From the IMG/VR virus record IMGVR_UViG_2565956633_000005, positions 1 through 42,184 of that record: 42,184 bases of DNA; one strand, given 5' to 3'. Positions within the stretch are counted from its first letter, which is position 1, and each line of letters begins with the position of its first letter. A program made the translations under genes and the position numbers. The notes under the pieces were generated by a model. That model was not told where the DNA came from. It did no database searches and was given only the letters and a program-made list of their open reading frames with translations. The stretch is from a virus. Taxonomy: Duplodnaviria > Heunggongvirae > Uroviricota > Caudoviricetes. This document shows positions 21,856 through 39,350 of this stretch, one piece after another.

Positions 21856-22262
21856 AGCCTCACCTCCGATTTTTCGGATGGCGCTGTGTGTGTTTGAAAA
21901 GGGTCAGGCTTCACGGGCTGGATTTATCAACAAAGCACGTAGCGGATGATTCCCGTGAGCCTGAAATTGATGAATATGTCTGAAATAACTAGACCATTAG
22001 TAAAACAACTCGATAAATGTGGTTAAATGAGACTACGTTCTCACAACTTAATTAGTACCAATGATTATCAAGCCCTGCCCCTACTGCGGAAAGTTAATTA
22101 ACCCAGAATCACTTGTGTGTAGCCACTGCCGGATAGTGAATCCTTTTGTGAAGGCCAGCAGAAGAGAAAAAGCGAAGAATGTATTAGTAATCGCTCTCGT
22201 TGCTGCTTTTTTAATTTGGATGATTCTCTGAGTTGCCAGTTTTCAATGAAGATAATGCGGGC

Positions 22263-22289
22263 AAAAAAAGCCTGCTCGGACGAACAGGC
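22263..22289 (-). terminator. intrinsic terminator candidate
   Basis: Minus-strand hairpin GCCTG-N10-CAGGC followed by U7 (plus A-run 22263-22269). Confidence 0.45.
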
Positions 22290-22706
22290 ATGAAAAATAA
22301 CAATACCGTCAAGGAGGTGGCGCCGGGTGCCTCCCGGTGGAACAGCCCCAGCCGACTAGTTCCGCGCAAACAAACCTGGACAAAAAAGTTTGACTGGACG
22401 CCCCGCCGCATAGGGGGATTCACCACGAACCAAAAGATAAAATCATCCGGTGACCGGGGCAATATCTAACCGGAACTTTTCAGAATCACTTATTGTTTCC
22501 TGGAGAGTACATGAGCGTTGGTGAATTCACGTGATGCTTTTGGATGAGCGCTGAACCCAAAGGTCAGTATTTTCACACAGCAATTTTGCAAAAAGCAGCG
22601 CCCATTCAAAACCAGGTCGCTTTCCAGTCACTCCGGGGAACCCATCATCGCAGACTGGAAAGCTTTTACTGGAGCGGGCAAAGGAATCGAACCTCTGACG
22701 CGCAGC

Positions 22707-23167: not shown

Positions 23168-23242
23168 TGGCGGGACAGGAAGGATTCGAACCTTCGACCA
23201 TTCGGTTAACAGCCGAACGCACAACCGCTGTGCTTCTGACCC
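23168..23242 (-). tRNA. tRNA-Asn (anticodon GTT)
   Basis: Hand-folded cloverleaf: T arm GAAGG-TTCGAAT-CCTTC, anticodon loop CTGTTAA, G73 discriminator, encoded CCA; deviations A8 and a U-U mismatch in the acceptor stem. Confidence 0.6.
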
Positions 23243-23249
23243 TGAAATG

Positions 23250-23275
23250 AAAAAGCCCCGCACGATGGCGAGGCT
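23250..23275 (-). terminator. hairpin plus U5 between late promoter candidate and tRNA
   Basis: 8-bp stem with one mismatch, then UUUUU on minus-strand transcript. Confidence 0.3.
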
Positions 23276-23328
23276 CTTAATTCTTTGTCGACCTACGAAG
23301 CTATGGCGACGATATCATATTTACATGA

Positions 23329-27587: not shown

Positions 27588-28105
27588 TGGTTGCCTCCTT
27601 TGCGAAGCTGGGCGGCGATATCTTCGAGAACGCCATCAGAGAATGAGCGGTCAAAATCGCCTTCCGGCGCATTAGCCATAAACTCAGTAGAGGTAAGAAT
27701 CATCCTGGCAATATCCGCGGCGTTCTTTGCAGTATCATCAATAAAACCAGCTTCCCAGGCAGCCAGCATTCTGTTCGCCACAAAGTAAGCTCCCTCCTTG
27801 CGTGCTTCAGTCTTCACTTCAGCCAGGAAAGCGTCGGTCGCCGGTGTTGGTTCTTGTGGTGATACAGCAACGCGAATGGTTTCAAGTGCCGGGTCTGTTT
27901 CCACTGTCGGAACCTGGATATAACCAAGCTGCACCCCATTCATGATGAACGTGCGACGGTCTTCACACACCGCCTTCAGCCCCGCATTCTCCGCTGCCAT
28001 CTGCGCCAGCTTCATCTCCATATTATCGATTGTGATATCAGTCTGGCGGCCGTAGCGCTCTGACTCGATGAGCTTCTGCTCTAACTCTTCATAACTCGGT
28101 TTCAT
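27584..28105 (-). CDS. hypothetical protein
   Basis: ATG at 28103-28105 (MKPSYEELEQK...) overlapping ren stop. Confidence 0.45.
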   Translation of the reverse strand: MKPSYEELEQKLIESERYGRQTDITIDNMEMKLAQMAAENAGLKAVCEDRRTFIMNGVQLGYIQVPTVETDPALETIRVAVSPQEPTPATDAFLAEVKTEARKEGAYFVANRMLAAWEAGFIDDTAKNAADIARMILTSTEFMANAPEGDFDRSFSDGVLEDIAAQLRKGGNQ

Positions 28106-28443
28106 GCTCTCACCCCGTATACGCTTAAAATTCTTTTCATCGCCGCGCTGTTGCGGCACTCCTGGCAGATCACGTTTGTGTCCGTCCGCTGAATTAACTT
28201 CGACTTACCCTGCTTCATGCCAGGTATCGTGTCAGGGGCGAAGCGCATTCCGTAGCTGGTCAGGCTGTAAAGGCGCTGGCCGTATTTTCCTTCGCAGCGG
28301 ATCAGGCCGTCTGCCAGCAGCGTGCTCACCGTTCCGGATATCTTTTTGGTGTCCATGCCGATAAGCCCTGCCAGTTTGGCGTTGTTCAACCCTGGGTTGT
28401 TGCGCAGGGCTGCCAGCACCTGCTCACGGATTGTTATGTTCAT
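28102..28443 (-). CDS. ren: Ren-like protein
   Basis: ATG at 28441-28443; C-terminal ...ICQECRNSAAMKRILSVYGVRA resembles lambda Ren; directly downstream of P. Confidence 0.65.
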   Translation of the reverse strand: MNITIREQVLAALRNNPGLNNAKLAGLIGMDTKKISGTVSTLLADGLIRCEGKYGQRLYSLTSYGMRFAPDTIPGMKQGKSKLIQRTDTNVICQECRNSAAMKRILSVYGVRA

Positions 28444-28444
28444 G

Positions 28445-29134
28445 TCACACCATCCCGTTCGACTTGTTGCGGTTGTACTTGGCCAGCAGCAGCTGGATCG
28501 GCGTCGGCCCTTGCTCGGCAGCTGGTGCGGCAATAGCCCGGCGTACCGGCGGCACTGGCTTACCCTCGGTGACGCGCCTTTCCCACATGTCCAGCAGATC
28601 GCCTGCCTCGCGTGCCAGTTCACCATGCGTTAACTGGCGCTCGGTGCTGCGGTGGCGCAATTCTACGCAAATGTGGTACATGACCGGCTGCGACCATGGA
28701 AATTGCTCGCTGGAGATGAATTCGAACGAGCGGTTACGCCAGTCCCAGTATTCGGCGATCACCTGGTCAACGTTGACGCCCAGCGCGCCGCCGCTCTGCT
28801 TGCACCAGGCGACGAACTGGCCCGGCGACGGCAGGAATGGGCGCTCCTGGCGGCGGGCAATGCGCATGCCGGCATCGACCTGAGCCATGGTGTGGATCCC
28901 GTTCTCCTGAAACGCCAGCAGCCACTGACGGCGGAATTCGTTCAGGTCTTCCTGGGTGCGGAAGTTCGCCATGCTGGCCGGGAACGCGGCGCGCAGCTCG
29001 TTGAACAGCTTGTTGAATACCTGCGCCACCTGCTCGACCGGCGCGCACTCCTGGTACTGCTCTGGCAGGTTATGGGCCATGCGGCTCATCTGCTCGCGGT
29101 CGTGGTTACGCATCTGCTCTGCAAGAGATTTCAT
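28445..29134 (-). CDS. P: replication protein P (helicase loader)
   Basis: N-terminus MKSLAEQMRNHDREQMSRMAHNLPEQY resembles lambda P. Confidence 0.8.
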   Translation of the reverse strand: MKSLAEQMRNHDREQMSRMAHNLPEQYQECAPVEQVAQVFNKLFNELRAAFPASMANFRTQEDLNEFRRQWLLAFQENGIHTMAQVDAGMRIARRQERPFLPSPGQFVAWCKQSGGALGVNVDQVIAEYWDWRNRSFEFISSEQFPWSQPVMYHICVELRHRSTERQLTHGELAREAGDLLDMWERRVTEGKPVPPVRRAIAAPAAEQGPTPIQLLLAKYNRNKSNGMV

Positions 29135-30039
29135 CGGATCACCCCATAGGCCCAGTCAGTGTTGTTGAAGTCCAGATCTGGCTTGACAGCGCGCTGCTCA
29201 CCTCCGGCGTTACGCTGCATTGTCAGCTTGTCCCACTGCTTACGCAGGCTTTCGGGACTCAGGATGTTGGTCTGCCAGAAGTGGTGTTTGCTAGCCCAGT
29301 CATACAGCGCGCAGATGTCCTGGTGCGACCGGTTGTCTATCTGGCGCATCAGGCGAACAGTGTTAGACCAGGAGGTCATGTCCGGGGCTTTGCAGGTTGG
29401 GTTAATCAGCTTCACCCTGGAGGAAATCCACTTAGCTGTCTCGAGGTCTTCAGCAGAGCCCCACTTCGCACCGGATGGTGTGTAGACCGCAGCTTCAGGA
29501 TGAGTTGATAAAAATTTCTTCAGACGTGCGTCAGAGGATTCGTCAGAATTCTCGGACGAAGATCTTTTAATACTGTTCTTGTTCTTGTATTGGGTGTCTA
29601 CCGTTTTCGGGAAGGTTATTCCTGATTTCGGGAAGGATTTTCCCGTTTTCGGGAATTTTCTTCCCGTTTCCGGTTTGTCTAAAATCCATGCTGAAAGGTC
29701 AGTGTTTACACCGACGATTTTCATCATGCCCTGCTTCTGTGAAAAGATGATTTTGCGTTCTGCGAGAGACTTAAGCGCGTCCGATACATGCGTATCGCTC
29801 AGGCCCGTAAGCTCGGCAATAACCGTATTTGTCACGCGGTCCTGTTTCTTGTTCCAGCCGTAGGTAAGCCAGATCACCGCCTCAAAACATTGCCATTCCC
29901 GGCCTGACAGTCTCAGGCGAGGCTTAAGCTGTTGGATCTCGTTAGCGACCTTGGTATACCCGTTCGACAGGTCGGCCATACGACCTCCCGGTTGTTCGGT
30001 TTTATTTGGGAAATTGATTATTTCAGCGGTGTTTGACAT
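29131..30039 (-). CDS. O: replication initiator protein O
   Basis: Track start is GTG; ATG at 30037-30039 (MSNTAEIINF...) resembles lambda O; iterons inside. Confidence 0.8.
   Translation of the reverse strand: MSNTAEIINFPNKTEQPGGRMADLSNGYTKVANEIQQLKPRLRLSGREWQCFEAVIWLTYGWNKKQDRVTNTVIAELTGLSDTHVSDALKSLAERKIIFSQKQGMMKIVGVNTDLSAWILDKPETGRKFPKTGKSFPKSGITFPKTVDTQYKNKNSIKRSSSENSDESSDARLKKFLSTHPEAAVYTPSGAKWGSAEDLETAKWISSRVKLINPTCKAPDMTSWSNTVRLMRQIDNRSHQDICALYDWASKHHFWQTNILSPESLRKQWDKLTMQRNAGGEQRAVKPDLDFNNTDWAYGVIR
29599..29673. repeat. ori iterons inside the O gene
   Basis: About four ~21-bp spaced copies of TCCCG-TTTT-CGGGAA-like element (perfect palindrome at 29641-29655). Confidence 0.55.
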
Positions 30040-30124
30040 ACTTACTCCCGTTACTTGGCGTAACACAGTGTGATAAGGGCCTTTGAAGTTACCGCTTCAA
30101 GGGCTTTTTCTTTTCTTGTGCCTC

Positions 30125-30670
30125 TCATATAACCCCCAGCATCGATGTAACCATCGTCATCAGCGGTCCTACCTGCTCCGGCATGAGGCGGAACAGCGAC
30201 GCTATACCCTCGCTTACCTCTTTGAGCTTCTGATGCTCTGGAGCGTCCAGCAGCACGGCCTGTTTAGCCTCGGCACACTCTTTCATCGCAGAGGCGATCA
30301 GCGACATCGTGTCGTTCTGCGGCGCCAGACGGTTTCGGTACTCCAGCGGCAGGACCGACATGATTGCCGGGGCCAGCTGGCGAATGTTGTTGGCGGCGTA
30401 TTCGGTATCGCCATCAATCCATCGAAACACTTTCTGCATCTGGCGGTGCGAGTCAGTCTGGATATCCAGACCGGTTCCGCCGGACGCCCGCCACTCTTCC
30501 ACGATCAGCGCGGCGACAAATTCACGACTGCGGCAATCAGCTGCCCAGGCGCGTACTGCTGCGCGGATCCCATCGATATTTAACGCCGAGGATTCTCGCT
30601 CCCGGCGATTCTGGTAAATCATCGCCGCTGGCGAAAATTTGTTACCTTGTTGATACGCAAGTGAATGCAT
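30125..30670 (-). CDS. hypothetical regulator in the cII position (possibly YdaT-like)
   Basis: 181-aa ORF between cro-like gene and O; assignment uncertain. Confidence 0.4.
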   Translation of the reverse strand: MHSLAYQQGNKFSPAAMIYQNRRERESSALNIDGIRAAVRAWAADCRSREFVAALIVEEWRASGGTGLDIQTDSHRQMQKVFRWIDGDTEYAANNIRQLAPAIMSVLPLEYRNRLAPQNDTMSLIASAMKECAEAKQAVLLDAPEHQKLKEVSEGIASLFRLMPEQVGPLMTMVTSMLGVI

Positions 30671-30715
30671 TGCTTTCCCTTTCGTGGTTAGGGCCGCCGG
30701 TCAGGCGGCTGTCGA

Positions 30716-30946
30716 TTAATTTTTAATTCGGTCAGGGTTTGCAGCCTGTAGTAGCCACTCTGCCGTAAACTGCCCTTTTGATGCGTCAGCCAAAAGCTGT
30801 GAATAGTTGGTTTTCTCTGTGTACTCAGTGCGAGGCAACGCCGCGTTCTTTACCCACTTGTGAATAGCAACATTCGACAGACCACATAGGCGTGCCGCTG
30901 CGGTTTGTCCGCCTACAGCTTCGATTGCAAATTGCATTGGGTTCAT
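30716..30946 (-). CDS. cro: Cro-like HTH repressor
   Basis: 76 aa; HTH TAAARLCGLSNVAIHKWV; divergent from cI. Confidence 0.7.
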   Translation of the reverse strand: MNPMQFAIEAVGGQTAAARLCGLSNVAIHKWVKNAALPRTEYTEKTNYSQLLADASKGQFTAEWLLQAANPDRIKN

Positions 30947-31030
30947 AGTGTTTTCCGTTAACTATATTAACTACGAGTTAAGGTTATATCTTAACTGACA
31001 GTTATGTCAACTCTAATTGATAATTAACAC
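30947..31030. promoter_or_regulatory. OR-like operator region with divergent pR/pRM candidates
   Basis: 21-bp palindrome AGTTAAG-N7-CTTAACT (30976-30996); minus-strand pR TTGACA-16-TATAAC; plus-strand pRM CTGACA-16-GATAAT ending 8 nt before cI ATG. Confidence 0.5.
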
Positions 31031-31798
31031 ATGGTTAAAAAAGACGATTTAAAAGAAGAATTCTCGAAGAGACTTCGCGCTGCATTGCTTGATGCTGGCG
31101 TGGGTGGGCGTGGGCAGGCTGGCAGGATCAGGGAAGCTATGAAGTCCCAAGGGATTGCTGTATCTGAGCCCGGGATCTGGAAGTGGCTTAACGCATCAGC
31201 AATACCAGACCAAACCAATATCCTTGCACTTAGCCGCTGGCTTGGGGTTCGCCCTGAGTGGCTGGAATACGGAAGGAATGATCCTGAACCTGAACTGCAC
31301 AGGGTATCATCCATCCCGCCTGAATCTGAGTGGGGAACTGTCGACGCTTGGGACAAAAATACCCCCCTACCTGACGATGAGGTGGAAGTACCGTTTCTGA
31401 AGGATATCGAGTTTGCGTGTGGTGATGGGCGTGTTCATAGCGAAGATCATAACGGCTTTAAACTGAGGTTCTCCAAGGCAACGCTCAGAAGGGTGGGTGC
31501 AAATAGTGATGGTTCTGGAGTGCTTTGCTTTCCCGCTTCTGGTGACAGCATGGAGCCCGTTATTCCTGACGGCGCAACGGTAGCAGTCGATACAGGCAAC
31601 AAGCGGATTATTGACGGCGAACTCTATGCTATTAACCAGGGCGATTTAAAGCGCATAAAGCAGCTTTATCGAAAGCCTGGTGGGAAGCTATTAATACGAA
31701 GCATCAATCGCGATTATGACGATGAAGAGGCTGATGAGGCAGATGTCGAGATAATCGGTTTTGTGTTCTGGTACTCGGTATTGCGATATCGCCGATAA
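31031..31798 (+). CDS. cI: CI-like repressor (HTH plus S24 LexA-like autopeptidase domain)
   Basis: 255 aa; C-terminal GDSMEPVIPDGATVAV...K motif. Confidence 0.8.
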   Translation: MVKKDDLKEEFSKRLRAALLDAGVGGRGQAGRIREAMKSQGIAVSEPGIWKWLNASAIPDQTNILALSRWLGVRPEWLEYGRNDPEPELHRVSSIPPESEWGTVDAWDKNTPLPDDEVEVPFLKDIEFACGDGRVHSEDHNGFKLRFSKATLRRVGANSDGSGVLCFPASGDSMEPVIPDGATVAVDTGNKRIIDGELYAINQGDLKRIKQLYRKPGGKLLIRSINRDYDDEEADEADVEIIGFVFWYSVLRYRR

Positions 31799-31803
31799 TT
31801 TTA

Positions 31804-31916
31804 GTGGCCTGAAGAGACGTTTGGGTGATAAGAGAATATCTGATAGTAGGCGTGGTTACTTTGCTCTCGGTTGTTGCGATCGTGCTTATGGTGGCCTGAT
31901 GAGACGTTTGGGTGAT
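31804..31916. repeat. 27-bp direct repeat pair
   Basis: GTGGCCTGA(A/T)GAGACGTTTGGGTGAT at 31804-31830 and 31890-31916, one mismatch. Confidence 0.6.
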
Positions 31917-32064
31917 GGGCAAGGTGTTCTGGTCGGCGCATAGCTGGTGAAAAAATTATTTAATGCGGTGTATTGGCTGATTGTAACCCCATGTAACATC
32001 TTGCCGTCACCATTTCGGTGGTTAGATTTTTAATAAAAAAAACAAATGTATAGCAAGGTTTTTT

Positions 32065-32544
32065 ATGGATAAAATTAATTACCCACCCCTGTTTGAGCCA
32101 GGGCTCCATGACATGGATGAAGCTGGATTAAAATCGTATTGTGTCGATTGCTTTCCTTCATCATCCAGGCGAGGCATGCTATACTGTAATTTTATACAGC
32201 TACTCGAATCTATTCGAGAATTATCTGCTCAATATGGCTGTTTTACAGAAATATGGGTTGATGGTTCATACACCACGTCTAAACCAGAGCCTGATGATAT
32301 TGATATTTTGTTGGTATGTGACTATAGCAATATAAACTCAATACCTGTCATGCTTCGGGGCCGCGTCGATAATTTGCTTGACCGAAACTACATCAAACAA
32401 AACTACAAAATTGATGTCCTACTACTCATGAAGAATTTAGATGACCCTAACTATGATTATGAGTACTGGCGTAGCTACTGGCGCGGTTGGTTTGGTTTTG
32501 ATCGCAGTGAAAACCCGAAAGGGTTAGTGAGGATTTTTTTATGA
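32065..32544 (+). CDS. minimal nucleotidyltransferase-like protein (Pol-beta superfamily signature)
   Basis: 159 aa; AAGG RBS; EIWVDGSYTTSKPEPDDIDILLV fits hG[GS]x9-13Dx[DE]; later KIDVLLL acidic strand; AT-rich. Confidence 0.55.
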   Translation: MDKINYPPLFEPGLHDMDEAGLKSYCVDCFPSSSRRGMLYCNFIQLLESIRELSAQYGCFTEIWVDGSYTTSKPEPDDIDILLVCDYSNINSIPVMLRGRVDNLLDRNYIKQNYKIDVLLLMKNLDDPNYDYEYWRSYWRGWFGFDRSENPKGLVRIFL

Positions 32545-33473
32545 ATGATAAATCAATGTTTAAAAATTGCGATAAACGCATTGATTTCATTCAAAAAGAA
32601 GTCGATGCAATGAAGCAAAACAAAACCAGGTCCTTTGCTGACATGCTTCTTTATCGCTCCATGGATTCTCATCTGAGCGATTTGAAGGCCGAAAAATTAA
32701 AGCAAGATAGTCGGCACCCACTTATCGATTTTTTTGAGCTGCGGCTGAAAGGCTCTGAGGTTGACTTTGGCTCTATTCCTTTAGAGCTGCTTGGGGCTAT
32801 TTCAACAAATCTTGCAGCGCTAATACAAAGAGCAACACACAAAATTGCCTCAGGCAAGGACTCAAAAAAAGTTCCCTACGACGTGAAAAGCTCCTTAAAC
32901 CTCAGGCTGGCTGATTTATCCCCTGGGTCTACAAAATTGGGCGTCACCTTCTCTACAGGAATAGCAGAATTAGTAGAAACAGTACCCAGCAAGGCTGTAA
33001 AAGGCATATTCGATTTGTTGTTAAGCGATGACGACAACAACTTCATGAATCACGTCGCTGAAATTGGATACAATTCCACTGTAAGCCTTAAGAGAATCGT
33101 AGAGGAATGCGATAAACACAACTTAACATTTGATGCAAGTTGGACCGGTCCATTTAGTAATGGCACCAAGGTGGCAACTATTGACTCCAATAAAATTAAG
33201 TACTTGGTGAGTAGACTTACATCAACCATTTCATCCCCTCCCATTACTGAAACGGTTACAGGCGAACTGGTCGTTCTATCCAAATATGGGAAGCTGGAGC
33301 TTGATGTTGGTGGTGAACATTTAAAGGCTTCCTATCCGATTGAAATGCTAGATTTAATACAAAAAAAACACAAGGTCGGACAGATTGTTTCTCTTTTAGT
33401 GGAGACTACTGAGATTCACAATGATCGCATAGGTCTGTACCGTAAAAACCATCTTGTTAAATCGGTTCTTTAA
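32541..33473 (+). CDS. hypothetical protein, partner of NTase-like gene
   Basis: 310 aa; ATGA overlap with upstream gene; GTGAGGA RBS; no recognisable motif. Confidence 0.55.
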   Translation: MNDKSMFKNCDKRIDFIQKEVDAMKQNKTRSFADMLLYRSMDSHLSDLKAEKLKQDSRHPLIDFFELRLKGSEVDFGSIPLELLGAISTNLAALIQRATHKIASGKDSKKVPYDVKSSLNLRLADLSPGSTKLGVTFSTGIAELVETVPSKAVKGIFDLLLSDDDNNFMNHVAEIGYNSTVSLKRIVEECDKHNLTFDASWTGPFSNGTKVATIDSNKIKYLVSRLTSTISSPPITETVTGELVVLSKYGKLELDVGGEHLKASYPIEMLDLIQKKHKVGQIVSLLVETTEIHNDRIGLYRKNHLVKSVL

Positions 33474-33480
33474 TATCTCA

Positions 33481-33504
33481 CCCGGCCACCGCGCCGGGTT
33501 TTTT
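33481..33504 (+). terminator. intrinsic terminator
   Basis: CCCGGC-CACCGC-GCCGGG hairpin followed by TTTTTT. Confidence 0.65.
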
Positions 33505-33588
33505 ATTGCCCACCCATAAAGCCATCCTCCATTCTGCCGATAACTATCCAGCCTGAAGCTGATAACAATAACTATCGCAACACTACCT

Positions 33589-33610
33589 GCCCGCCCGTGC
33601 GGGCTTTTTT
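33589..33610 (+). terminator. intrinsic terminator
   Basis: GCCCGC-CCGT-GCGGGC hairpin followed by TTTTTT. Confidence 0.6.
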
Positions 33611-33806
33611 ATTGTCCTTTCCGCACTATCTCAGCTGCATCCCTGTTCACACCCTTACCTATCACGTTTCCCGTTTCCTTCCGGTACCGTTCCAGCTTGT
33701 CGATGATGTTTTGCTGGGTCATAGGTAAATCTGCCAGTGACAACTCCATGACCGCCCGCCCCATGGCGTGAACCATCATGTTCACTCTTTCTTCATTCAA
33801 GCCCAT
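33609..33806 (-). CDS. small hypothetical protein (65 aa)
   Basis: ATG at 33804-33806 with AGGAG RBS; isolated on minus strand. Confidence 0.45.
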   Translation of the reverse strand: MGLNEERVNMMVHAMGRAVMELSLADLPMTQQNIIDKLERYRKETGNVIGKGVNRDAAEIVRKGQ

Positions 33807-33928
33807 TACCCACTCCTTTTTGATGTTTTTTTCAGCATATCACATGCCAAGCAAATCTATAACCAAACTAAATTAACCAATAAATCATAACCTTAATAAC
33901 CAACACAGAAATAATTAACCATTGGTTA

Positions 33929-33957
33929 TTGACTGAAAATAACCATTAGTTAATAAT
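33929..33957 (+). promoter_or_regulatory. candidate pL-like promoter with operator-like repeats
   Basis: TTGACT-16 nt-TAATAA(T); embedded in TAACCA/TGGTTA repeats including palindrome TAACCATTGGTTA (33916-33928) and TAATTAAC shared with OR. Confidence 0.35.
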
Positions 33958-34373
33958 CAACCCATCGAAACGAAACATCGACAGCTGAGCGAAGTTAGCC
34001 AGCGGCGGACAGCAAGTCGCCTGCTTTTTAACAACATGCAGATTTACAGCGTCAATGACCTGTTAAGACCCCTACACGTAAACGTGCTGTATCACCGGGT
34101 GCGATCCGGTCGGTGAGAGAGTATCCCCGCGCGAGAGCGAGAACGGCGTGAGAACGGGCAACACTGGCAGGGAGTTGGCGCTGACCAATACAGGGAATGT
34201 TATGGGATGTGGTGAAGGGTTCATGGACGGGAATATGTCGCACGTAAAGCGGCGAGGCCCGAGGAGCTATTGCCGAAGATAAGTAGGCCGAATCGGGTCG
34301 AAATGGGTCTCCCACCTACCACAGCACCAAAGCATTTCTCCCGCATCAGCGGGTAACTAAGTGGAGAGTAAGT

Positions 34374-34562
34374 ATGCACAAGTGTCAATTCTGTGGGTAC
34401 TTTCTGGCATCTGAAGAGATGCAGAGAATATCTGTAAACATGGTTGGCAGGCCTTACAACATCTGCATTCCATGCTCAGAAAAGTACAAAAAGAAAGGCC
34501 TGTGGGATTCGGCAAAAAACGATATCGACTGGAAAGCACTTCCATGCGTCGATGAGACATAA
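34374..34562 (+). CDS. small Cys-rich hypothetical protein
   Basis: 62 aa, GGAGAG RBS, CxxC...CxxC pattern. Confidence 0.4.
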   Translation: MHKCQFCGYFLASEEMQRISVNMVGRPYNICIPCSEKYKKKGLWDSAKNDIDWKALPCVDET

Positions 34563-34595
34563 CCGCATCAGCGGGTAACGACAGAGGGTAAGGGG

Positions 34596-34892
34596 ATGAT
34601 CGACGACATCAAGCGCATCGACTCAATGATAAATGCGCTTCGCAATATGAAACAGGACATCAAGCGTCAGCAGAAACTAAGTGAAATAAACAGTTTAGAC
34701 CTGTCGCCGAAGCAAGCTCAAAAGCGCAATGCCGATGCTGACTGGATTGCGATGGAACAGATTAAGCGTCGGCATGAGCTGCACGCTCTGTCTGTTGAGC
34801 TTGGGTTCGCTGAGCGCCGGGAAAGTTATGCTCCATTTGAATTAACTGACGGGTGGCACCGATTCGACCACAAGCCGCGCGAACCTCAATAG
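34596..34892 (+). CDS. hypothetical protein
   Basis: 98 aa with RBS; followed by hairpin plus T-run at about 34893-34916. Confidence 0.4.
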   Translation: MIDDIKRIDSMINALRNMKQDIKRQQKLSEINSLDLSPKQAQKRNADADWIAMEQIKRRHELHALSVELGFAERRESYAPFELTDGWHRFDHKPREPQ

Positions 34893-35048
34893 CCGCCTAA
34901 CCAGCGGCTTTTTCATACCTGGAGTCATTTACGAGTGGCTCAAGTTATGACAACCGGCGGCCATCCACCGCCCATTGAAACACTGAATAAATGCGTTGAA
35001 GTCTTGTATTAACCGTTCCGTTCGCCGCGATAAGGCCAAGAGGAAATC

Positions 35049-35820: not shown

Positions 35821-35960
35821 GCGAAAGCCCACCGAAGTGGGCCCGCCATGTCCGGCCTCACCGACCAAAGTTACACCGGAAACAACATTAAAACCAAAGT
35901 TAACCCAATGGGCGCTATCAATGGTCCGGGGATTCTAACACCCAAAAATGAGGATCTCAC

Positions 35961-38900
35961 ATGGAATTCTTTAATGTGGTTAAAGCCACTCAGAAATCCG
36001 GAAAGCAAGATGCAGTGGTCTGGTTCACTGCTAAAACCGAGGCTCGCGCCAATCTGATGCTGGATGTTGCGCTGGAAGATGCAGGTATCGAAACAGGTCG
36101 GGGTAAGGACTACGCCAAACCGATTCGCACTGATTTCCCAGTTGTCGACGGCCTGCCGAAAGAAGGTGAAGTTGATTTTACCTGGTGTGATCGCTACGAG
36201 CTTCAGGACGATGGGCGCACCTGGCTGCCAAAAGCCGCTGGTGTGTCTACTGGTTCCGTTGACGCCCCCTACACACCTACTCCGACCGTAATCGTTGAAG
36301 ATGCGACTGCGTCCGAAATTGTCCCGGTTGAAAACCGTACTCCAGCGGTCCGCTTTGCCGTCCATCTGATGAACGATAAATACCAAACCCACGTCACTAA
36401 AGAGCAGCAGTTGGCTGCCAGCGAAATGTCACTGGATGAAGGCAATACATATCTCCATAGCCTGCTTGTGGCAAGGAACGATGTGCCCGCGACCGCCAAA
36501 CTCAGCCTGAATGCTGAGTGGAAAATGATTCGGGCGGTTAAGGACATTTTCACACCCGACGAAGAGCACGAACCAAGATTGATCGCTGCATTCATGTCTG
36601 ACTGGGTGAACACCGATGCCGGTGACCGCAATCAACTGGTAGAAGACTGGCGCAGTGGTAAGTTGCAGTTGCTCAAAACTGAAACCAGCAACGCTGCTGA
36701 CGTTACAACGGGTCAAGATCTCACTGTTGAGGACGGTATCCAGACCGACGAGAACGGCCGGGCAGAAGGTGGCGTCGTTGATGGTGAAGTCGATACCGAA
36801 GAGCAATCCCAGCAGACACAGCAACCGAACCTGATCGTTGTTGCCACCCTGCCATTCCGCCAGCGCGTACTGGCTCAGTTCATCGGTGATGGTGAATATC
36901 TCTATCACATCGACGCAGGGCAGAAAAATGAGATTGTCCGCCTTGAGATGGACACCGATGACGCGTACGTCCAGAACCTGCTGCTGGCAGCTGAGAATGT
37001 GGAAGCATTCAAAAAAGCCATTGAGCACGATATTCATAAAGTCGTGAATGCCGTTAAGAAAGTCTTCCCTGTCGATGGAAAAATCCCTGAACTCGCAACC
37101 TTAATCCAGTTTTTGAAATTGTGGTTCGCTACAGATCACATCGACCGCGGTATCCTCGTTCGCGAATGGGCCGCCGGTAATCGCATCAGTAGTGTGCAGC
37201 GTACTGATTCCGGAACCAATGCCAACGGCGGTTACGTCACTGACCGTGGACCTGATACATACCATACCCTTGACACTCTCGATTTAGAGATTGCATGTGC
37301 CCTTCTGCCTATGGACTTCAACCACTTCGAGATCCCGGGCAGCATTCTTCGTCGCGCTAAAGAAATCGTGACCAAAAAAGAAGAACCATGGAAATCATGG
37401 AGCAACATCCTGCGCAATCAGCCAGGCGTTCTGGGTGTTAACCGCACGGCTATTTTTAACCTGGTACGTATCGCACCGGAAAATATTCATTTAACTCCTG
37501 TCGCTCACCTGGAATTTGTTAACCAGACCATGACAGCCGCGTTCAATTCCGCGGTCGAGTTATTGCCGTTGCATGAGGCTGAACCCGCAGCACAGGAAAT
37601 TCCCCAACCTGAAGGTAAGGAGTCTCCGCGCAAATCCTTCTGCACTCACGAAGAGAACCTGCAACGCGTGCGTGAAGAAGGAGCACGCCGCCGCGCAGAG
37701 GAAGCGGCAGCACAACCGCAGAAAGTCGAACAAGAACTGGTTAAAAATGTCGGCAACGGAATATTCGACGTTACGGCTTTGCTGCAGAACTCAGCAACTC
37801 ATGGCACGAAAAAGGCTACGGAGACCACCAGCAATGTGCAGGTTCAAGAAACTGTCAGTGATGAAAAACAAGCTGGTGATGAAGTACAGCCAGGCGAAAG
37901 CAGTCTGGAGTCTGGTGAAGAGTCAGATACCAGCCAGAAGGACGATGTAAACCAGAATACGGATTCTGTCGCCAAAAATAGCGATTCTGTAAGCCAAACC
38001 GAACCAGTTGCAGCACAAACCGAGCCAGAAGCGCAATCTGACGAACCGGCTGTTGTTTATCCCGCTTATTTCGAGCCAGGCCGCTATGAAGGGCTGCCAA
38101 ACGAGGTTTACCACGCCGCCAACGGCATCAGCTCAACCCAGGTGAAAGATGCGCGCGTTTCGCTGATGTACTTCAATGCGCGCCACGTAGAGAAAACCAT
38201 CGTCAAAGAGCGCTCAGCGGTGCTGGACATGGGCAACTTGGTGCATGCGCTGGCGTTGCAGCCTGAACTACTGGACGCAGAATTCAGCGTTGAACCGGTG
38301 ATCCCTGAAGGCGCATTCACAACGGCCGCGACCCTGCGCGCCTTTATCGATGAGCACAATGCCAGCCTGCCGGCGCTGCTGTCTGCCGACGACATCAAGG
38401 TGTTACTGGAAGAGTACAACGCCACCCTGCCGCCGCAGGTTCCGCTTGGCGCTAACCTGGAAGAAACGGCACAGAACTATATGGCGCTGCCAGCTGACTT
38501 CCAGCGTATTGATGGTGACCAGAAGCAGACGGCGACGGCAATGAAGGCATGCATTAAAGAGTACAACGCCACCCTGCCGCCGCCGGTTAAAACCAGCGGC
38601 AGCCGTGACGCGCTGCTGGAGCAGTTGGCAATCATCAACCCTGACCTTGTGGCTCAGGAAGCACAGAAACCGGCACCACTGAAAGTGTCCGGTACCAAAG
38701 CAGACATGATCCAGGCCGTGAAGGCAGTCAAACCAGATGCCGTATTTGCCGACGAACTGCTGGATGCCTGGCGCGATAACCCGGAAGGAAAAGTGCTGGT
38801 CACCCGCCAGCAGCTGAGCACCGCGCTGAATATTCAAAAAGCGCTTCTGGCACACCCGACCGCCGGCATGCTGCTGACCCACCCTAGCCGAGCCGTTGAG

Positions 38901-39350
38901 GTGAGCTACTTTGGTTTTGACGAGGAGACGGGCTTGGAAGTTCGTGTGCGCCCTGACCTTGAGATCGACCTGGATGGCGTGCGTATAGGTGCAGACCTGA
39001 AAACCATCAGCATGTGGAATGTTAAGCAGGAAAGCCTGCGCGCCAGGCTACACCGGGAAATTATTGAACGTGATTATCACCTGAGCGCGGCTATGTACTG
39101 CGAAACCGCAGCGCTGGATCAGTTCTTCTGGATTTTCGTCAACAAAGACGAGAACTACCACTGGATCGCCATCATCGAGGCATCCGCTGAACTACTGGAG
39201 CTGGGTATGCTCGAGTACCGCAAAGCGATGCGCAATATCGCAACCGGATTCGACACAGGTGAATGGCCAGCGCCAATCACTGCTGACTACACCGACGAAC
39301 TGAACGACTTCGACCTGCGCCGCCTTGAAGCGCTGCGTACTCAGGCATAA
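35961..39350 (+). CDS. recE: large RecE-like exonuclease (putative exodeoxyribonuclease VIII-type)
   Basis: 1129-aa ORF with TGAGGA RBS directly upstream of RecT-like gene; nuclease assignment by synteny, tentative. Confidence 0.5.
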   Translation: MEFFNVVKATQKSGKQDAVVWFTAKTEARANLMLDVALEDAGIETGRGKDYAKPIRTDFPVVDGLPKEGEVDFTWCDRYELQDDGRTWLPKAAGVSTGSVDAPYTPTPTVIVEDATASEIVPVENRTPAVRFAVHLMNDKYQTHVTKEQQLAASEMSLDEGNTYLHSLLVARNDVPATAKLSLNAEWKMIRAVKDIFTPDEEHEPRLIAAFMSDWVNTDAGDRNQLVEDWRSGKLQLLKTETSNAADVTTGQDLTVEDGIQTDENGRAEGGVVDGEVDTEEQSQQTQQPNLIVVATLPFRQRVLAQFIGDGEYLYHIDAGQKNEIVRLEMDTDDAYVQNLLLAAENVEAFKKAIEHDIHKVVNAVKKVFPVDGKIPELATLIQFLKLWFATDHIDRGILVREWAAGNRISSVQRTDSGTNANGGYVTDRGPDTYHTLDTLDLEIACALLPMDFNHFEIPGSILRRAKEIVTKKEEPWKSWSNILRNQPGVLGVNRTAIFNLVRIAPENIHLTPVAHLEFVNQTMTAAFNSAVELLPLHEAEPAAQEIPQPEGKESPRKSFCTHEENLQRVREEGARRRAEEAAAQPQKVEQELVKNVGNGIFDVTALLQNSATHGTKKATETTSNVQVQETVSDEKQAGDEVQPGESSLESGEESDTSQKDDVNQNTDSVAKNSDSVSQTEPVAAQTEPEAQSDEPAVVYPAYFEPGRYEGLPNEVYHAANGISSTQVKDARVSLMYFNARHVEKTIVKERSAVLDMGNLVHALALQPELLDAEFSVEPVIPEGAFTTAATLRAFIDEHNASLPALLSADDIKVLLEEYNATLPPQVPLGANLEETAQNYMALPADFQRIDGDQKQTATAMKACIKEYNATLPPPVKTSGSRDALLEQLAIINPDLVAQEAQKPAPLKVSGTKADMIQAVKAVKPDAVFADELLDAWRDNPEGKVLVTRQQLSTALNIQKALLAHPTAGMLLTHPSRAVEVSYFGFDEETGLEVRVRPDLEIDLDGVRIGADLKTISMWNVKQESLRARLHREIIERDYHLSAAMYCETAALDQFFWIFVNKDENYHWIAIIEASAELLELGMLEYRKAMRNIATGFDTGEWPAPITADYTDELNDFDLRRLEALRTQA

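What the first reader, a model, noticed from the sequence alone, without database searches (positions are those of the whole stretch)
34341..34579. Exact 17-bp hairpin-containing repeat preceding two consecutive early-left genes
Seen in sequence: CCGCATCAGCGGGTAAC at 34341-34357 and 34563-34579, each 17-20 nt upstream of a start codon (34374 and 34596). Contains a short stem CCGC-ATCA-GCGG. Inference: shared translational or processing element, or nut/boxB-like antitermination hairpin.
Basis: seen in the sequence. Interest (0 to 1): 0.4.

Follow-up and report, generated by a model that had tools for sequence, protein, structure and literature searches.

The report
Duplicated leader hairpin flanking inserted gene
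The 17-bp repeat is the near-invariant hairpin core of a ~48-nt untranslated 'adaptor' that joins the structured early-left leader RNA to the first gene in phi80-like prophages; it is present twice here because a small zinc-ribbon gene sits between two copies of it, which is ordinary phage mosaicism at an unusually swap-prone gene slot, not an antitermination (nut) site.

Summary
In detail: the exact 17-mer occurs at 34341-34357 and 34563-34579, each copy 16 nt before a start codon, and it is not a chance match. The window is a phi80-like prophage. Phage phi80 has one copy. The window differs from phi80 by a precise 222-bp indel made of a 62-aa CxxC gene plus one repeat copy.

The 17-mer is the core of a sharply bounded ~48-nt island, AAAGCATTTCTC-CCGCATCAGCGGGTAAC-16 nt-ATG. 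It is found in more than 120 viral contigs and 14 Enterobacteriaceae species. About 47 different leader domains precede it and about 54 unrelated ORF families follow it, in 129 combinations.

The island is homologous to the end of the lambda N leader (…CCAAAGC|TAAC+16 nt+ATG) with 20 nt inserted, and those 20 nt carry the hairpin. Its left part is predicted to pair with an invariant GGAAUGUUUU at the base of a covarying long stem, the counterpart of lambda's long N-leader stem. The hairpin abuts that stem.

- **Shown:** the element's identity, its homology to lambda, and the link between the duplication and the gene cassette.
- **Inferred:** that the hairpin acts as a 5'UTR stability or processing element and as a recombination anchor.
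- **Not supported:** the boxB/nut reading.
- **Weak:** a 14-nt identity to an E. coli type I-E CRISPR repeat is noted.

The parts
33929..33957 (+). pL-like sigma-70 promoter (TTGACT-17-AATAAT) that starts the early-left transcript
   Evidence: It is aligned with the pL/operator region annotated in phi80.
34022..34034 (+). boxA-like TGCTTTTTAACAA (phi80 annotation: nutL boxA)
34075..34086 (+). CACGTAAACGTG, which the phi80 record annotates as 'nutL core'. This, not the 17-mer, is the candidate boxB.
34193..34201 (+). 5' strand of the invariant basal helix (GGGAAUGUU; family consensus GGAAUGUUUU). It is predicted to pair with 34331-34339.
   Evidence: MFE pair table. The sequence is near-invariant in 83 distinct leader contexts.
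34204..34328 (+). Variable leader domain closed by a covarying helix (GGGATGTGGT... / ...ACCACAGCACC). It is the counterpart of the long stem of the lambda N leader.
   Evidence: The same domain sits in a lambda-N leader in phage Louie.
34329..34340 (+). AAAGCATTTCTC, the left part of the conserved island and the 3' strand of the basal helix. It is present only before copy 1.
34341..34357 (+). 17-mer copy 1. The hairpin is C34340-G34353 (5 bp, loop AUCA), followed by UAAC.
34358..34373 (+). 16-nt translation-initiation spacer of ORF62 (TAAGTGGAGAGTAAGT)
34374..34562 (+). ORF62, a 62-aa CxxC...CxxC protein (phrog_19863, function unknown). It is the cargo of the 222-bp indel.
34563..34579 (+). 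17-mer copy 2. It starts right after the ORF62 stop codon. The hairpin is 34563-34574 (4 bp), followed by GUAAC.
34580..34595 (+). 16-nt family-consensus initiation spacer GACAGAGGGTAAGGGG before N
34596..34892 (+). phi80-type gene N (98 aa)
34891..35010 (+). Right flank of the gene slot: intrinsic terminator tL1A (AGCCGCCTAACCAGCGGCTTTTT), which overlaps the stop codon, plus a conserved ~90-nt stretch (..TTATGACAACCGGCGGCCATCCACCGCCCATT..)

Best explanation
**Shown.**
- The 17-mer is the near-invariant core of a ~48-nt non-coding junction element, AAAGCAUUUCUC-CCGCAUCAGCGGGUAAC-16 nt-AUG. It links the structured pL leader RNA to the first ORF of the early-left operon in phi80-like prophages of Enterobacteriaceae.
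- The element is the homologue of the 3' end of the lambda N leader (..CCAAAGC|UAAC + 16 nt + AUG) with 20 nt inserted (AUUUCUCCCGCAUCAGCGGG). Those 20 nt carry a stable GC hairpin.
- In predicted folds, AAAGCAUUUC pairs with an invariant GGAAUGUUUU to form the base of a long covarying stem. This stem is the counterpart of lambda's long N-leader stem. The hairpin stacks directly against it.
- The window has two copies because a 62-aa gene with its own 16-nt initiation region lies between a full element and a partial one (hairpin + UAAC + spacer). phi80 has the single-copy state. The same cassette, 17-mer-ORF62-17-mer, occurs behind at least 4 leader types and in front of 4 different genes.

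**Inferred.**
1. The cassette arose once, by an illegitimate join of the ORF62 stop codon to the hairpin. It then spread by homologous exchange within the conserved element, and it can be lost again by recombination between the 17-bp repeats.
2. At the RNA level, the hairpin belongs to the downstream gene's expression signal. Processing of the leader stem, as in lambda, would leave it about 12 nt from the new 5' end. There it would most likely protect or delimit the short 5'UTR.
3. At the DNA level, the 48-nt island on the left and the conserved terminator region on the right act as homology anchors. These anchors let phages swap the immediate-early gene.

The single confidence value combines about 0.85 for the shown part (identity, homology, cassette junctions) and about 0.35 for the inferred RNA-level role.
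For: - **Indel:** the window and phi80 are nearly identical from the transcript start region through N, apart from a precise 222-bp indel bounded by the repeat.
- **Cassette in other contexts:** HK225, E. coli EC09, L104 and L118 carry the same two-copy cassette with different outer flanks.
- **Distribution:** the 17-mer occurs in at least 120 IMG/VR contigs. A 26-mer containing it occurs in 14 species of 7 genera.
- **Conservation:** a sharp conservation island runs from -13 to +33 with random-looking flanks.
- **Spacing:** the start codon lies 16 nt downstream in 121 of 167 instances.
- **Reassortment:** 53-54 unrelated downstream ORF families, 47 left classes and 129 combinations.
- **Right flank:** the right side of the slot is also conserved, shared after 53 different genes.
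- **Lambda homology:** read directly. The 16-nt spacing after TAAC is the same in lambda (94 of 117 instances).
- **Pairing and stacking:**. The lambda leader has the same architecture.
- **Covariation of the closing helix:** cognate strands give a median of -16.2 kcal/mol against -9.8 for non-cognate strands.
- **Hairpin formation:** median pair probability 0.99 in 119 contexts.
- **Hairpin variation:** with the flanks fixed, 109 of 125 copies are identical, 10 loci carry loop changes, and 2 carry a U.G-preserving stem change.
- **Hairpin goes with the gene, not the leader:** Stx phage PA2 keeps the leader up to AAAGCATTTCC but has no hairpin and no ORF there. Internal copies keep the hairpin and spacer but not AAAGCATTTCTC.
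- **Literature:** RNase III positively regulates lambda N mRNA, and the lambda leader between nutL and N is highly structured (PMC9032294; PMC5725501).
Against: - No compensatory double substitution was seen in the hairpin. Four singleton variants break a pair. Structure-level selection on the hairpin itself is therefore not proven.
- In-silico ribosome-binding-site accessibility does not change when the stem is disrupted (0.467 vs 0.475). It also does not differ between hairpin-type and lambda-type leaders (0.447 vs 0.442).
- Seven internal copies of the same initiation spacer lack a complete hairpin, so the hairpin is not obligatory.
- Copy 2 is a weaker hairpin, with pair probability 0.43 in context.
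- RNase III cleavage of the phi80-type stem is inferred by homology only. The exact lambda cleavage positions come from my memory of Steege 1987 and Kameyama 1991, not from a held paper.
- The direction of the event, insertion here or deletion in phi80, cannot be decided.
Confidence: 0.6

Rival explanations
1. The element is purely a DNA-level recombination linker. The 48-nt island, including the hairpin, stays uniform only because frequent homologous exchange or gene conversion between co-resident lambdoid phages homogenises it. The RNA hairpin has no function of its own.
For: Left and right modules reassort almost freely across the island (129 combinations). Conservation edges are sharp. No covariation is seen in the hairpin. 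Disrupting the hairpin has no predicted effect on RBS accessibility. Some internal copies lack the hairpin.
Against: The left part of the island has an equally invariant complementary partner, GGAATGTTTT, about 100-180 nt upstream. Together they form a 10-bp helix in predicted folds, and DNA recombination does not require that. The spacing to the start codon is fixed at 16 nt. Substitutions fall preferentially in the loop: 10 loci across 4 loop nt against 6 loci across 10 stem nt.
Confidence: 0.2
2. The element is a nut-type boxB hairpin. An N-like antiterminator would bind it to modify RNA polymerase.
For: It is a small GC stem-loop in the leader upstream of gene N, on the pL transcript downstream of a boxA.
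Against: There is no second copy in the pR operon or anywhere else with up to 3 mismatches. The phi80 annotation places nutL 260 nt upstream. The element occurs in 174 loci, of which only 10 encode a phi80- or lambda-type N. The loop AUCA is not a GNRA-like pentaloop. It sits 16 nt from the start codon, the homologous position of the lambda N initiation region and not of lambda nutL. Its duplication here is explained by the cassette.
Confidence: 0.03
3. The element mimics a CRISPR type I-E repeat. The hairpin would be bound or cut by host Cas6e (CasE). It would act either as an RNA anti-CRISPR decoy or as a Cas6e-dependent processing site ahead of a counter-defence gene slot.
For: tCCCGCATCAGCGGGt is identical over 14 nt, in the transcribed sense, to the terminal repeat of the E. 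coli K-12 CRISPR-I array (GTGTTCCCCGCATCAGCGGGGATAAACCG). It matches the consensus repeat at 12 of those 14 positions. A TAA(A)C follows in both. The hosts are Enterobacteriaceae, which in my recollection often carry type I-E systems; this was not tested here. The element precedes a hypervariable slot of small, often acidic early proteins. RNA anti-CRISPRs are known to cluster with anti-CRISPR genes (PMC10651486).
Against: Outside the hairpin, only 6 of 15 repeat positions match. The 8-nt 5' handle AUAAACCG is absent. The stem is one pair shorter than the repeat's 6 bp: 5 bp in copy 1 and 4 bp in copy 2. Coverage is 48%, against the at least 90% coverage required by SRUFinder. No Rfam CRISPR-DR model matched at E<=1. 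The element lies about 375 nt from the promoter, inside an mRNA leader. A GC-rich 5-bp stem is a low-complexity target for a chance resemblance. The match was found post hoc through a text search.
Confidence: 0.05
4. The repeat is a target-site duplication or site-specific insertion. ORF62 would be a small mobile element that inserts at the hairpin and duplicates 17 bp.
For: The repeats are exact, direct and immediately flank a discrete 205-bp unit. The unit is always found with both copies and in several genomic contexts.
Against: The unit has no transposase, recombinase or terminal inverted repeats. ORF62 is a 62-aa protein with no family assignment beyond a PHROG of unknown function. Other two-copy or internal arrangements retain different lengths of the element: 17, about 20, about 27 and about 29 nt, or only the 3' arm. 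This points to independent recombination joints rather than a fixed-length duplication. ORF62 homologues in mEp213 and Louie lack the repeat.
Confidence: 0.05

Closest known systems
Lambda N-leader: long structured stem between nutL and N, with the N translation-initiation region (Steege 1987, Kameyama 1991 and Wilson 2002 cited from memory; summarised in PMC5725501 and PMC9032294)
   Same: It holds the same position on the pL transcript. It has the same architecture: a long stem with a one-nucleotide bulge near its base that closes a variable domain. The same sequence lies at the stem's 3' end (CC-AAAGC) and the same UAAC + 16 nt + AUG follows. The phi80-type variable domain is found inside true lambda-N leaders.
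   Different: Twenty extra nucleotides lie between AAAGC and UAAC. They extend the basal helix (AUUUC pairs with GGAAU) and add a self-contained 5-bp hairpin. The downstream gene is not tied to N: 53 families follow this element, whereas the hairpin-less lambda-type junction is followed by the lambda N family in 106 of 117 cases. RNase III cleavage has not been shown for this type.
Short conserved boundary or 'linker' sequences at module junctions of lambdoid phages, and 'moron' insertions (Susskind & Botstein, Juhala 2000, Clark 2001; from memory)
   Same: A short conserved non-coding sequence sits between freely reassorting modules. An extra small gene is inserted between existing genes and carries its own initiation signal.
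   Different: This junction is also a structured piece of a regulatory leader with fixed spacing to the start codon. The slot is bracketed on both sides by conserved sequence. The inserted gene has no promoter or terminator of its own, unlike a classical moron.
5'-proximal stem-loops that stabilise E. coli mRNAs (ompA type; Emory, Bouvet & Belasco 1992, from memory)
   Same: It is a stable GC hairpin in a short 5'UTR upstream of the Shine-Dalgarno sequence. After leader processing it would lie near the new 5' end.
   Different: The processed end has not been mapped. If cleavage is as in lambda, about 12 unpaired nt would precede the hairpin. That is more than is optimal for protection against 5'-end-dependent RNase E.
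CRISPR type I-E repeat hairpin / solitary repeat units (RNA anti-CRISPRs; PMC10651486)
   Same: It shares a 14-nt identical stem-loop with one E. coli K-12 repeat variant, in the sense orientation, within a mobile element.
   Different: It fails the identity and coverage definition and has no 5' handle. It is embedded in an mRNA leader rather than placed just after a promoter.

Membership tests
N-utilisation (nut) site / boxB | The same boxB hairpin is present in both early operons (nutL and nutR) | tested here: not met
   No further copy on either strand with up to 3 mismatches. No inverted copy was found in 28000-35000.
N-utilisation (nut) site / boxB | The hairpin lies just downstream of boxA, close to the promoter | tested here: not met
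   boxA is at 34022 and the 17-mer is at 34341, about 320 nt away. The phi80 record puts the nutL core at window 34075-34086.
N-utilisation (nut) site / boxB | The hairpin co-occurs with a cognate N protein | tested here: not met
   Only 9 of 174 loci with the element encode phi80 N, and 1 encodes lambda N.
Lambda-type N-leader 3' end (long stem + initiation region) | A long helix with conserved base (..GG / CC-AAAGC) closes a variable domain and is maintained by compensatory changes | tested here: met
   Cognate versus non-cognate duplex energies are -16.2 versus -9.8 kcal/mol.
Lambda-type N-leader 3' end (long stem + initiation region) | AAAGC, then UAAC, then 16 nt to the start codon | tested here: met
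   Here a 20-nt insertion lies between AAAGC and UAAC.
Lambda-type N-leader 3' end (long stem + initiation region) | RNase III cleavage of the stem | not testable with these tools
   This needs end mapping in rnc+ and rnc- hosts. Only the homology of the architecture was shown.
Solitary CRISPR repeat unit / RNA anti-CRISPR | At least 90% identity over at least 90% of a known repeat (SRUFinder full match) | tested here: not met
   There is a 14-nt exact match, which is 48% of the 29-nt repeat. Ungapped identity over the whole repeat is 20 of 29 (criteria). No Rfam CRISPR-DR model matched.
Solitary CRISPR repeat unit / RNA anti-CRISPR | Binding or processing by the cognate Cas6 | not testable with these tools
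   This requires a Cas6e binding or cleavage assay.
Transposable element with target-site duplication | A transposase or recombinase gene and terminal inverted repeats lie between the direct repeats | tested here: not met
   The 205-bp insert holds only a 62-aa zinc-ribbon-like ORF with no such family hit. No terminal inverted repeats are evident on inspection of the sequence, and the repeat search reported none in the cassette.
Intrinsic terminator | A GC-rich stem is followed by a U tract | tested here: not met
   The stem is followed by GUAAC. The scan finds terminators at 34004 and 34891 but none at the 17-mers.

The most novel reading that the evidence does not exclude
The near-invariant hairpin is a functional mimic of the host type I-E CRISPR repeat. 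Cas6e would bind or cut the early-left leader at GCGGG^UAAC. That would either titrate Cas6e, like an RNA anti-CRISPR, or release a 5'-OH mRNA for whichever counter-defence gene occupies the hypervariable slot.
Probability: 0.05. Interest if true: 0.8.

Novelty: new variant of a known kind. Interest (0 to 1): 0.4.

Why it matters
The repeat itself is explained by a gene cassette lying between two copies of a conserved junction, so it is not a new regulatory system.

The junction is useful for three reasons:
- **Mining handle.** It is a 26-48-nt near-invariant tag that marks, across at least seven genera, the single gene transcribed first from pL, before the first terminator. That slot holds more than 50 unrelated, mostly uncharacterised small proteins. 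The tag and the conserved terminator flank give a simple way to mine immediate-early accessory genes, which are plausibly counter-defence genes. This parallels how conserved neighbours were used to find anti-CRISPRs.
- **Evolution of the N leader.** The classical lambda N-leader design has a widespread variant that is no longer tied to N.
- **phi80 gene N.** The finding raises the question of whether phi80 'N' is simply one occupant of this slot.

Tried and rejected
1. **boxB/nut.** Rejected. There is no second copy, nutL is annotated elsewhere, and the element is not linked to N.
2. **Chance repeat.** Rejected.
3. **Known RNA family.** Rfam found none for the leader or the hairpin, at gathering thresholds or at E<=1.
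4. **Covariation in the hairpin.** There is too little variation. No double compensatory change was found.
5. **Mis-spaced scan.** My first degenerate scan used 14 N instead of 13. It returned only unrelated chance matches, so one scan was wasted.
6. **Hairpin as a structural insulator that keeps the ribosome-binding site open or uncouples it from the leader.** Not supported in silico. Accessibility is 0.467 for wild type, 0.475 with the stem disrupted and 0.450 with the hairpin deleted. Lambda-type and phi80-type leaders give the same accessibility and the same leader pairing.
7. **Hairpin always retained at internal junctions.** Not true. Seven internal copies of the same initiation spacer have only the 3' arm, a variant hairpin, another hairpin, or none.
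8. **tRNA gene as left neighbour.** Only 5 of 132 left flanks give an aragorn tRNA call. The general feature is a covarying closed stem, not a tRNA.
9. **ORF62 function.** No Pfam, NCBIfam or PDB assignment was found, only PHROG 19863 of unknown function.
10. **Primary lambda N-leader papers.** They are not held in the library, so the cleavage coordinates remain from memory.

Full report
**1. Observation.** CCGCATCAGCGGGTAAC occurs at 34341-34357 and 34563-34579 on the + strand and nowhere else in the 42-kb window, even with 3 mismatches. None of 100 shuffles gave two matches (repeat finder D10). Each copy is followed by exactly 16 nt and an ATG, at 34374 and 34596. Copy 1 forms a 5-bp stem, C34340-G34353, with loop AUCA (-9.0 kcal/mol). 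Copy 2 starts right after the ORF62 stop codon and forms 4 bp (-6.6 kcal/mol).

**2. Where we are.** The region is 99.7% identical to phage phi80. The ORF at 34596-34892 is phi80 gene N. A pL-like promoter lies at 33929-33957. The sites that the phi80 record calls nutL boxA and nutL core map to 34022-34030 and 34075-34086. E. coli G3/10 and KL53 carry the same arrangement at 100% and 99.7% identity.

**3. Why there are two copies.**
- A pairwise alignment with phi80 shows near-identity from the transcript start region through N, except for two substitutions (G34324 and A34326) and one clean 222-bp indel. The indel consists of one 17-mer copy, a 16-nt spacer and a 62-aa CxxC...CxxC ORF. phi80 has a single 17-mer.
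- The unit 17-mer-ORF62-17-mer is 99.2% identical in phage HK225, where both outer flanks are different. It also occurs in E. coli EC09, L104 and L118.
- Across the held loci, at least 4 leader types precede the unit and 4 different genes follow it.
- More distant ORF62 homologues (72-75% identity) in mEp213 and Louie sit directly after an N gene and lack the repeat.
- The repeat copies therefore mark the two junctions of a small gene cassette. Whether this lineage gained the cassette or phi80 lost it through the 17-bp repeats cannot be decided.

**4. What the 17-mer belongs to.**
A 26-mer that includes the 17-mer occurs in representative genomes of 14 species: Enterobacter (8), Scandinavium (2), Citrobacter, Pseudocitrobacter, Kosakonia, Trabulsiella and Escherichia.
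- Aligning all instances on the 17-mer gives a sharply bounded conserved island from about -13 to +33: ccAAAGCATTTCTC-CCGCATCAGCGGGTAAC-(G/T)ACAGAGGGTAAGGnn-ATG. Sequence on both sides looks random.
- The start codon is exactly 16 nt downstream in 121 of 167 instances.
- The ORFs that follow fall into 53-54 unrelated families of 25-222 aa. Almost all have unknown function.
- The 60 nt to the left fall into 47 classes. The two sides occur in 129 different combinations.
- The right side of this one-gene slot is also conserved. An intrinsic terminator overlaps or follows the stop codon, and a ~90-nt stretch after it is shared behind 53 different genes. In the window this is 34891-35010.

**5. Homology with the lambda N leader.**
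- Phage Louie encodes lambda N (MDAQTRRRERR...). Its leader carries the phi80-type variable domain and ends ...CCACACCACCAAAGC|TAACTGACAGGAGAATCCAGATG.
- Lambda itself reads ...GGCTTTGGGGTGTGTG...CACACACCACCAAAGC|TAAC|TGACAGGAGAATCCAG|ATG.
- The phi80-type element is therefore the lambda leader end with 20 nt, ATTTCTCCCGCATCAGCGGG, inserted between AAAGC and TAAC. The 16-nt distance from TAAC to ATG is unchanged (94 of 117 lambda-type instances).
- In the minimum-free-energy fold of the window leader, AAGCAUUUCU (34331-34339) pairs with GGGAAUGUU (34193-34201). The hairpin (34340-34353) follows with no unpaired nucleotide between.
- GGAATGTTTT is near-invariant in 83 distinct leaders.
- Above this basal helix is a closing helix whose two strands covary between leader classes. 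Examples are GGGGTGTGGTG/CACCACACC, GGGCTGGC/GCCAGC, GGGATTGGATG/CATCCAATC and GGGGTGAGTT/AACTCACC. Cognate strand pairs give a median of -16.2 kcal/mol against -9.8 for non-cognate pairs.
- The lambda leader folds into the same design.
- In lambda, RNase III positively regulates N mRNA, and the structured leader between nutL and N mediates translational control (PMC9032294; PMC5725501).
- From memory of Steege 1987 and Kameyama 1991, cleavage is at CC^AAAGC. If that also holds here, the conserved island is exactly the 5'UTR of the processed mRNA.

**6. Does the hairpin itself matter?**

Evidence for a role:
- It is predicted to form with median probability 0.99 in 119 different contexts.
- With the flanks fixed, 109 of 125 copies are identical. 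Ten loci carry loop changes and two carry a C-to-U change that keeps a G.U pair.
- It travels with the gene rather than with the leader. Stx phage PA2 keeps the leader up to AAAGCATTTCC but has neither hairpin nor ORF there. Internal copies, such as copy 2 here, keep hairpin + TAAC + spacer without AAAGCATTTCTC.

Evidence against:
- There is no compensatory double change, and four singletons break a pair.
- Seven internal copies of the same spacer have only the 3' arm, a variant hairpin, another hairpin, or none.
- Thermodynamic modelling shows no effect of the hairpin on ribosome-binding-site accessibility. It also shows no difference between hairpin-type and lambda-type leaders.

**7. A contrast that may be meaningful.** The hairpin-less lambda-type junction is followed by the lambda N family in 106 of 117 cases, with 7 families in all. 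The hairpin-type junction is followed by 53 families. Only 10 of 174 hairpin-type loci encode a phi80- or lambda-type N nearby. The hairpin-type leader has therefore become a general front end for a swappable immediate-early gene. I could not show computationally why.

**8. Rival readings.**
- **boxB/nut** fails three defining tests (section 2).
- **Target-site duplication** is unlikely. The insert encodes only a 62-aa protein of unknown function, and other junctions retain different lengths of the element.
- **CRISPR resemblance.** A full-text search for the 13-mer returned only a paper quoting an E. coli K-12 CRISPR repeat. In MG1655, the leader-distal repeat GTGTTCCCCGCATCAGCGGGGATAAACCG shares 14 consecutive nt, in the sense orientation, with tCCCGCATCAGCGGGt. 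The ten consensus repeats share 12 of those 14. Outside the hairpin only 6 of 15 positions match and the 5' handle is missing. The match fails the published criteria for solitary repeat units, and no Rfam CRISPR-DR model hits. I keep this as a 5% reading.

**9. Verdict.**
- The interpretation as a shared translational or processing element is broadly right. The nut interpretation is wrong.
- The duplication is the footprint of a small gene cassette at a conserved leader/5'UTR junction, which is a variant of the lambda N-leader end.
- **Shown:** identity, homology, the cassette boundaries, reassortment and the predicted RNA architecture.
- **Inferred:** RNase III processing, a stabilising or delimiting role for the hairpin, and use of the island and the terminator flank as recombination anchors.

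Noticed in passing
window 34329-35010; loci L011-L130, L252-L300: There is a one-gene hypervariable slot directly after the pL leader. It is bracketed by the 48-nt island on the left and, on the right, by an intrinsic terminator plus a ~90-nt conserved stretch. At least 53 unrelated small ORF families occupy it. Several unrelated occupants end in ..(K/R)AA; the terminator's 5' arm (AAGCCGCC) appears to supply these last codons, with the stop codon TAA in its loop.
   Followed up: partly
window 34596-34892: phi80 'N' has no arginine-rich N-terminus and no Pfam or NCBIfam family. It is just one of the many occupants of the slot (9 of 174 loci). Its assignment as an N-type antiterminator deserves re-examination.
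   Followed up: no
L035, L051, L064, L066, L076 (about 80 nt ending 13 nt before the 17-mer): In some phages the variable leader domain is tRNA-like. It has a GGTTCGAATCC T-loop and an NCCA end, and aragorn calls tRNA-Ile(GAT) or tRNA-Ser(UGA). In these cases the leader stem doubles as an acceptor stem.
   Followed up: partly
L007 (phage PA2) ~1200-1700: Stx phages carry the phi80-type leader (boxA to AAAGCATTTCC, 95% identical to window 34022-34338) in mid-operon after a PstI/BsuBI restriction-modification pair. There is no hairpin or ORF there. A strong TTGACT-17-TATATT promoter follows, then a short unannotated transcript that ends in a terminator. This may be an sRNA.
   Followed up: no
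L131 (E. coli MG1655 CRISPR-I array), minus-strand position 1072: The leader-distal repeat of the K-12 array differs from the consensus in the loop (ATCA instead of GCCA). It is identical over 14 nt to the phage hairpin.
   Followed up: partly
window 34324 and 34326: These are the only two substitutions relative to phi80 in the leader. They lie in the 3' strand of the closing helix and weaken it (-13.3 vs -17.5 kcal/mol). They make the sequence match the GCCAGCACC leader class seen with the ORF62 cassette in E. coli EC09. This may be a recombination scar.
   Followed up: partly
window 22259-22451(-), 23171-23242(-), 23252-23325(-), 35822-35919(-): Rfam gathering-threshold hits: STnc100 sRNA, a tRNA, isrJ, and a marginal isrB hit antisense to the region just upstream of the 1129-aa ORF at 35961-39350 (RecE-like by my reading of its neighbourhood; not tested).
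   Followed up: no
window 29601-29673: Three overlapping, imperfect copies (81% identity to the reference) of a 31-nt motif, spaced 21 nt apart (CCGTTTTCGGGAAGG...). They look like replication-origin iterons.
   Followed up: no
L318, L352, L353, L374, L059, L076, L051: The family's initiation spacer ACAGAGGGTAAGGnnATG also occurs before internal genes. There it is preceded by only the hairpin's 3' arm after a terminator, by a shortened hairpin (CCCGTCAGCGGG), by a different hairpin (CACCCTTAAAGGGTG), or by none.
   Followed up: partly
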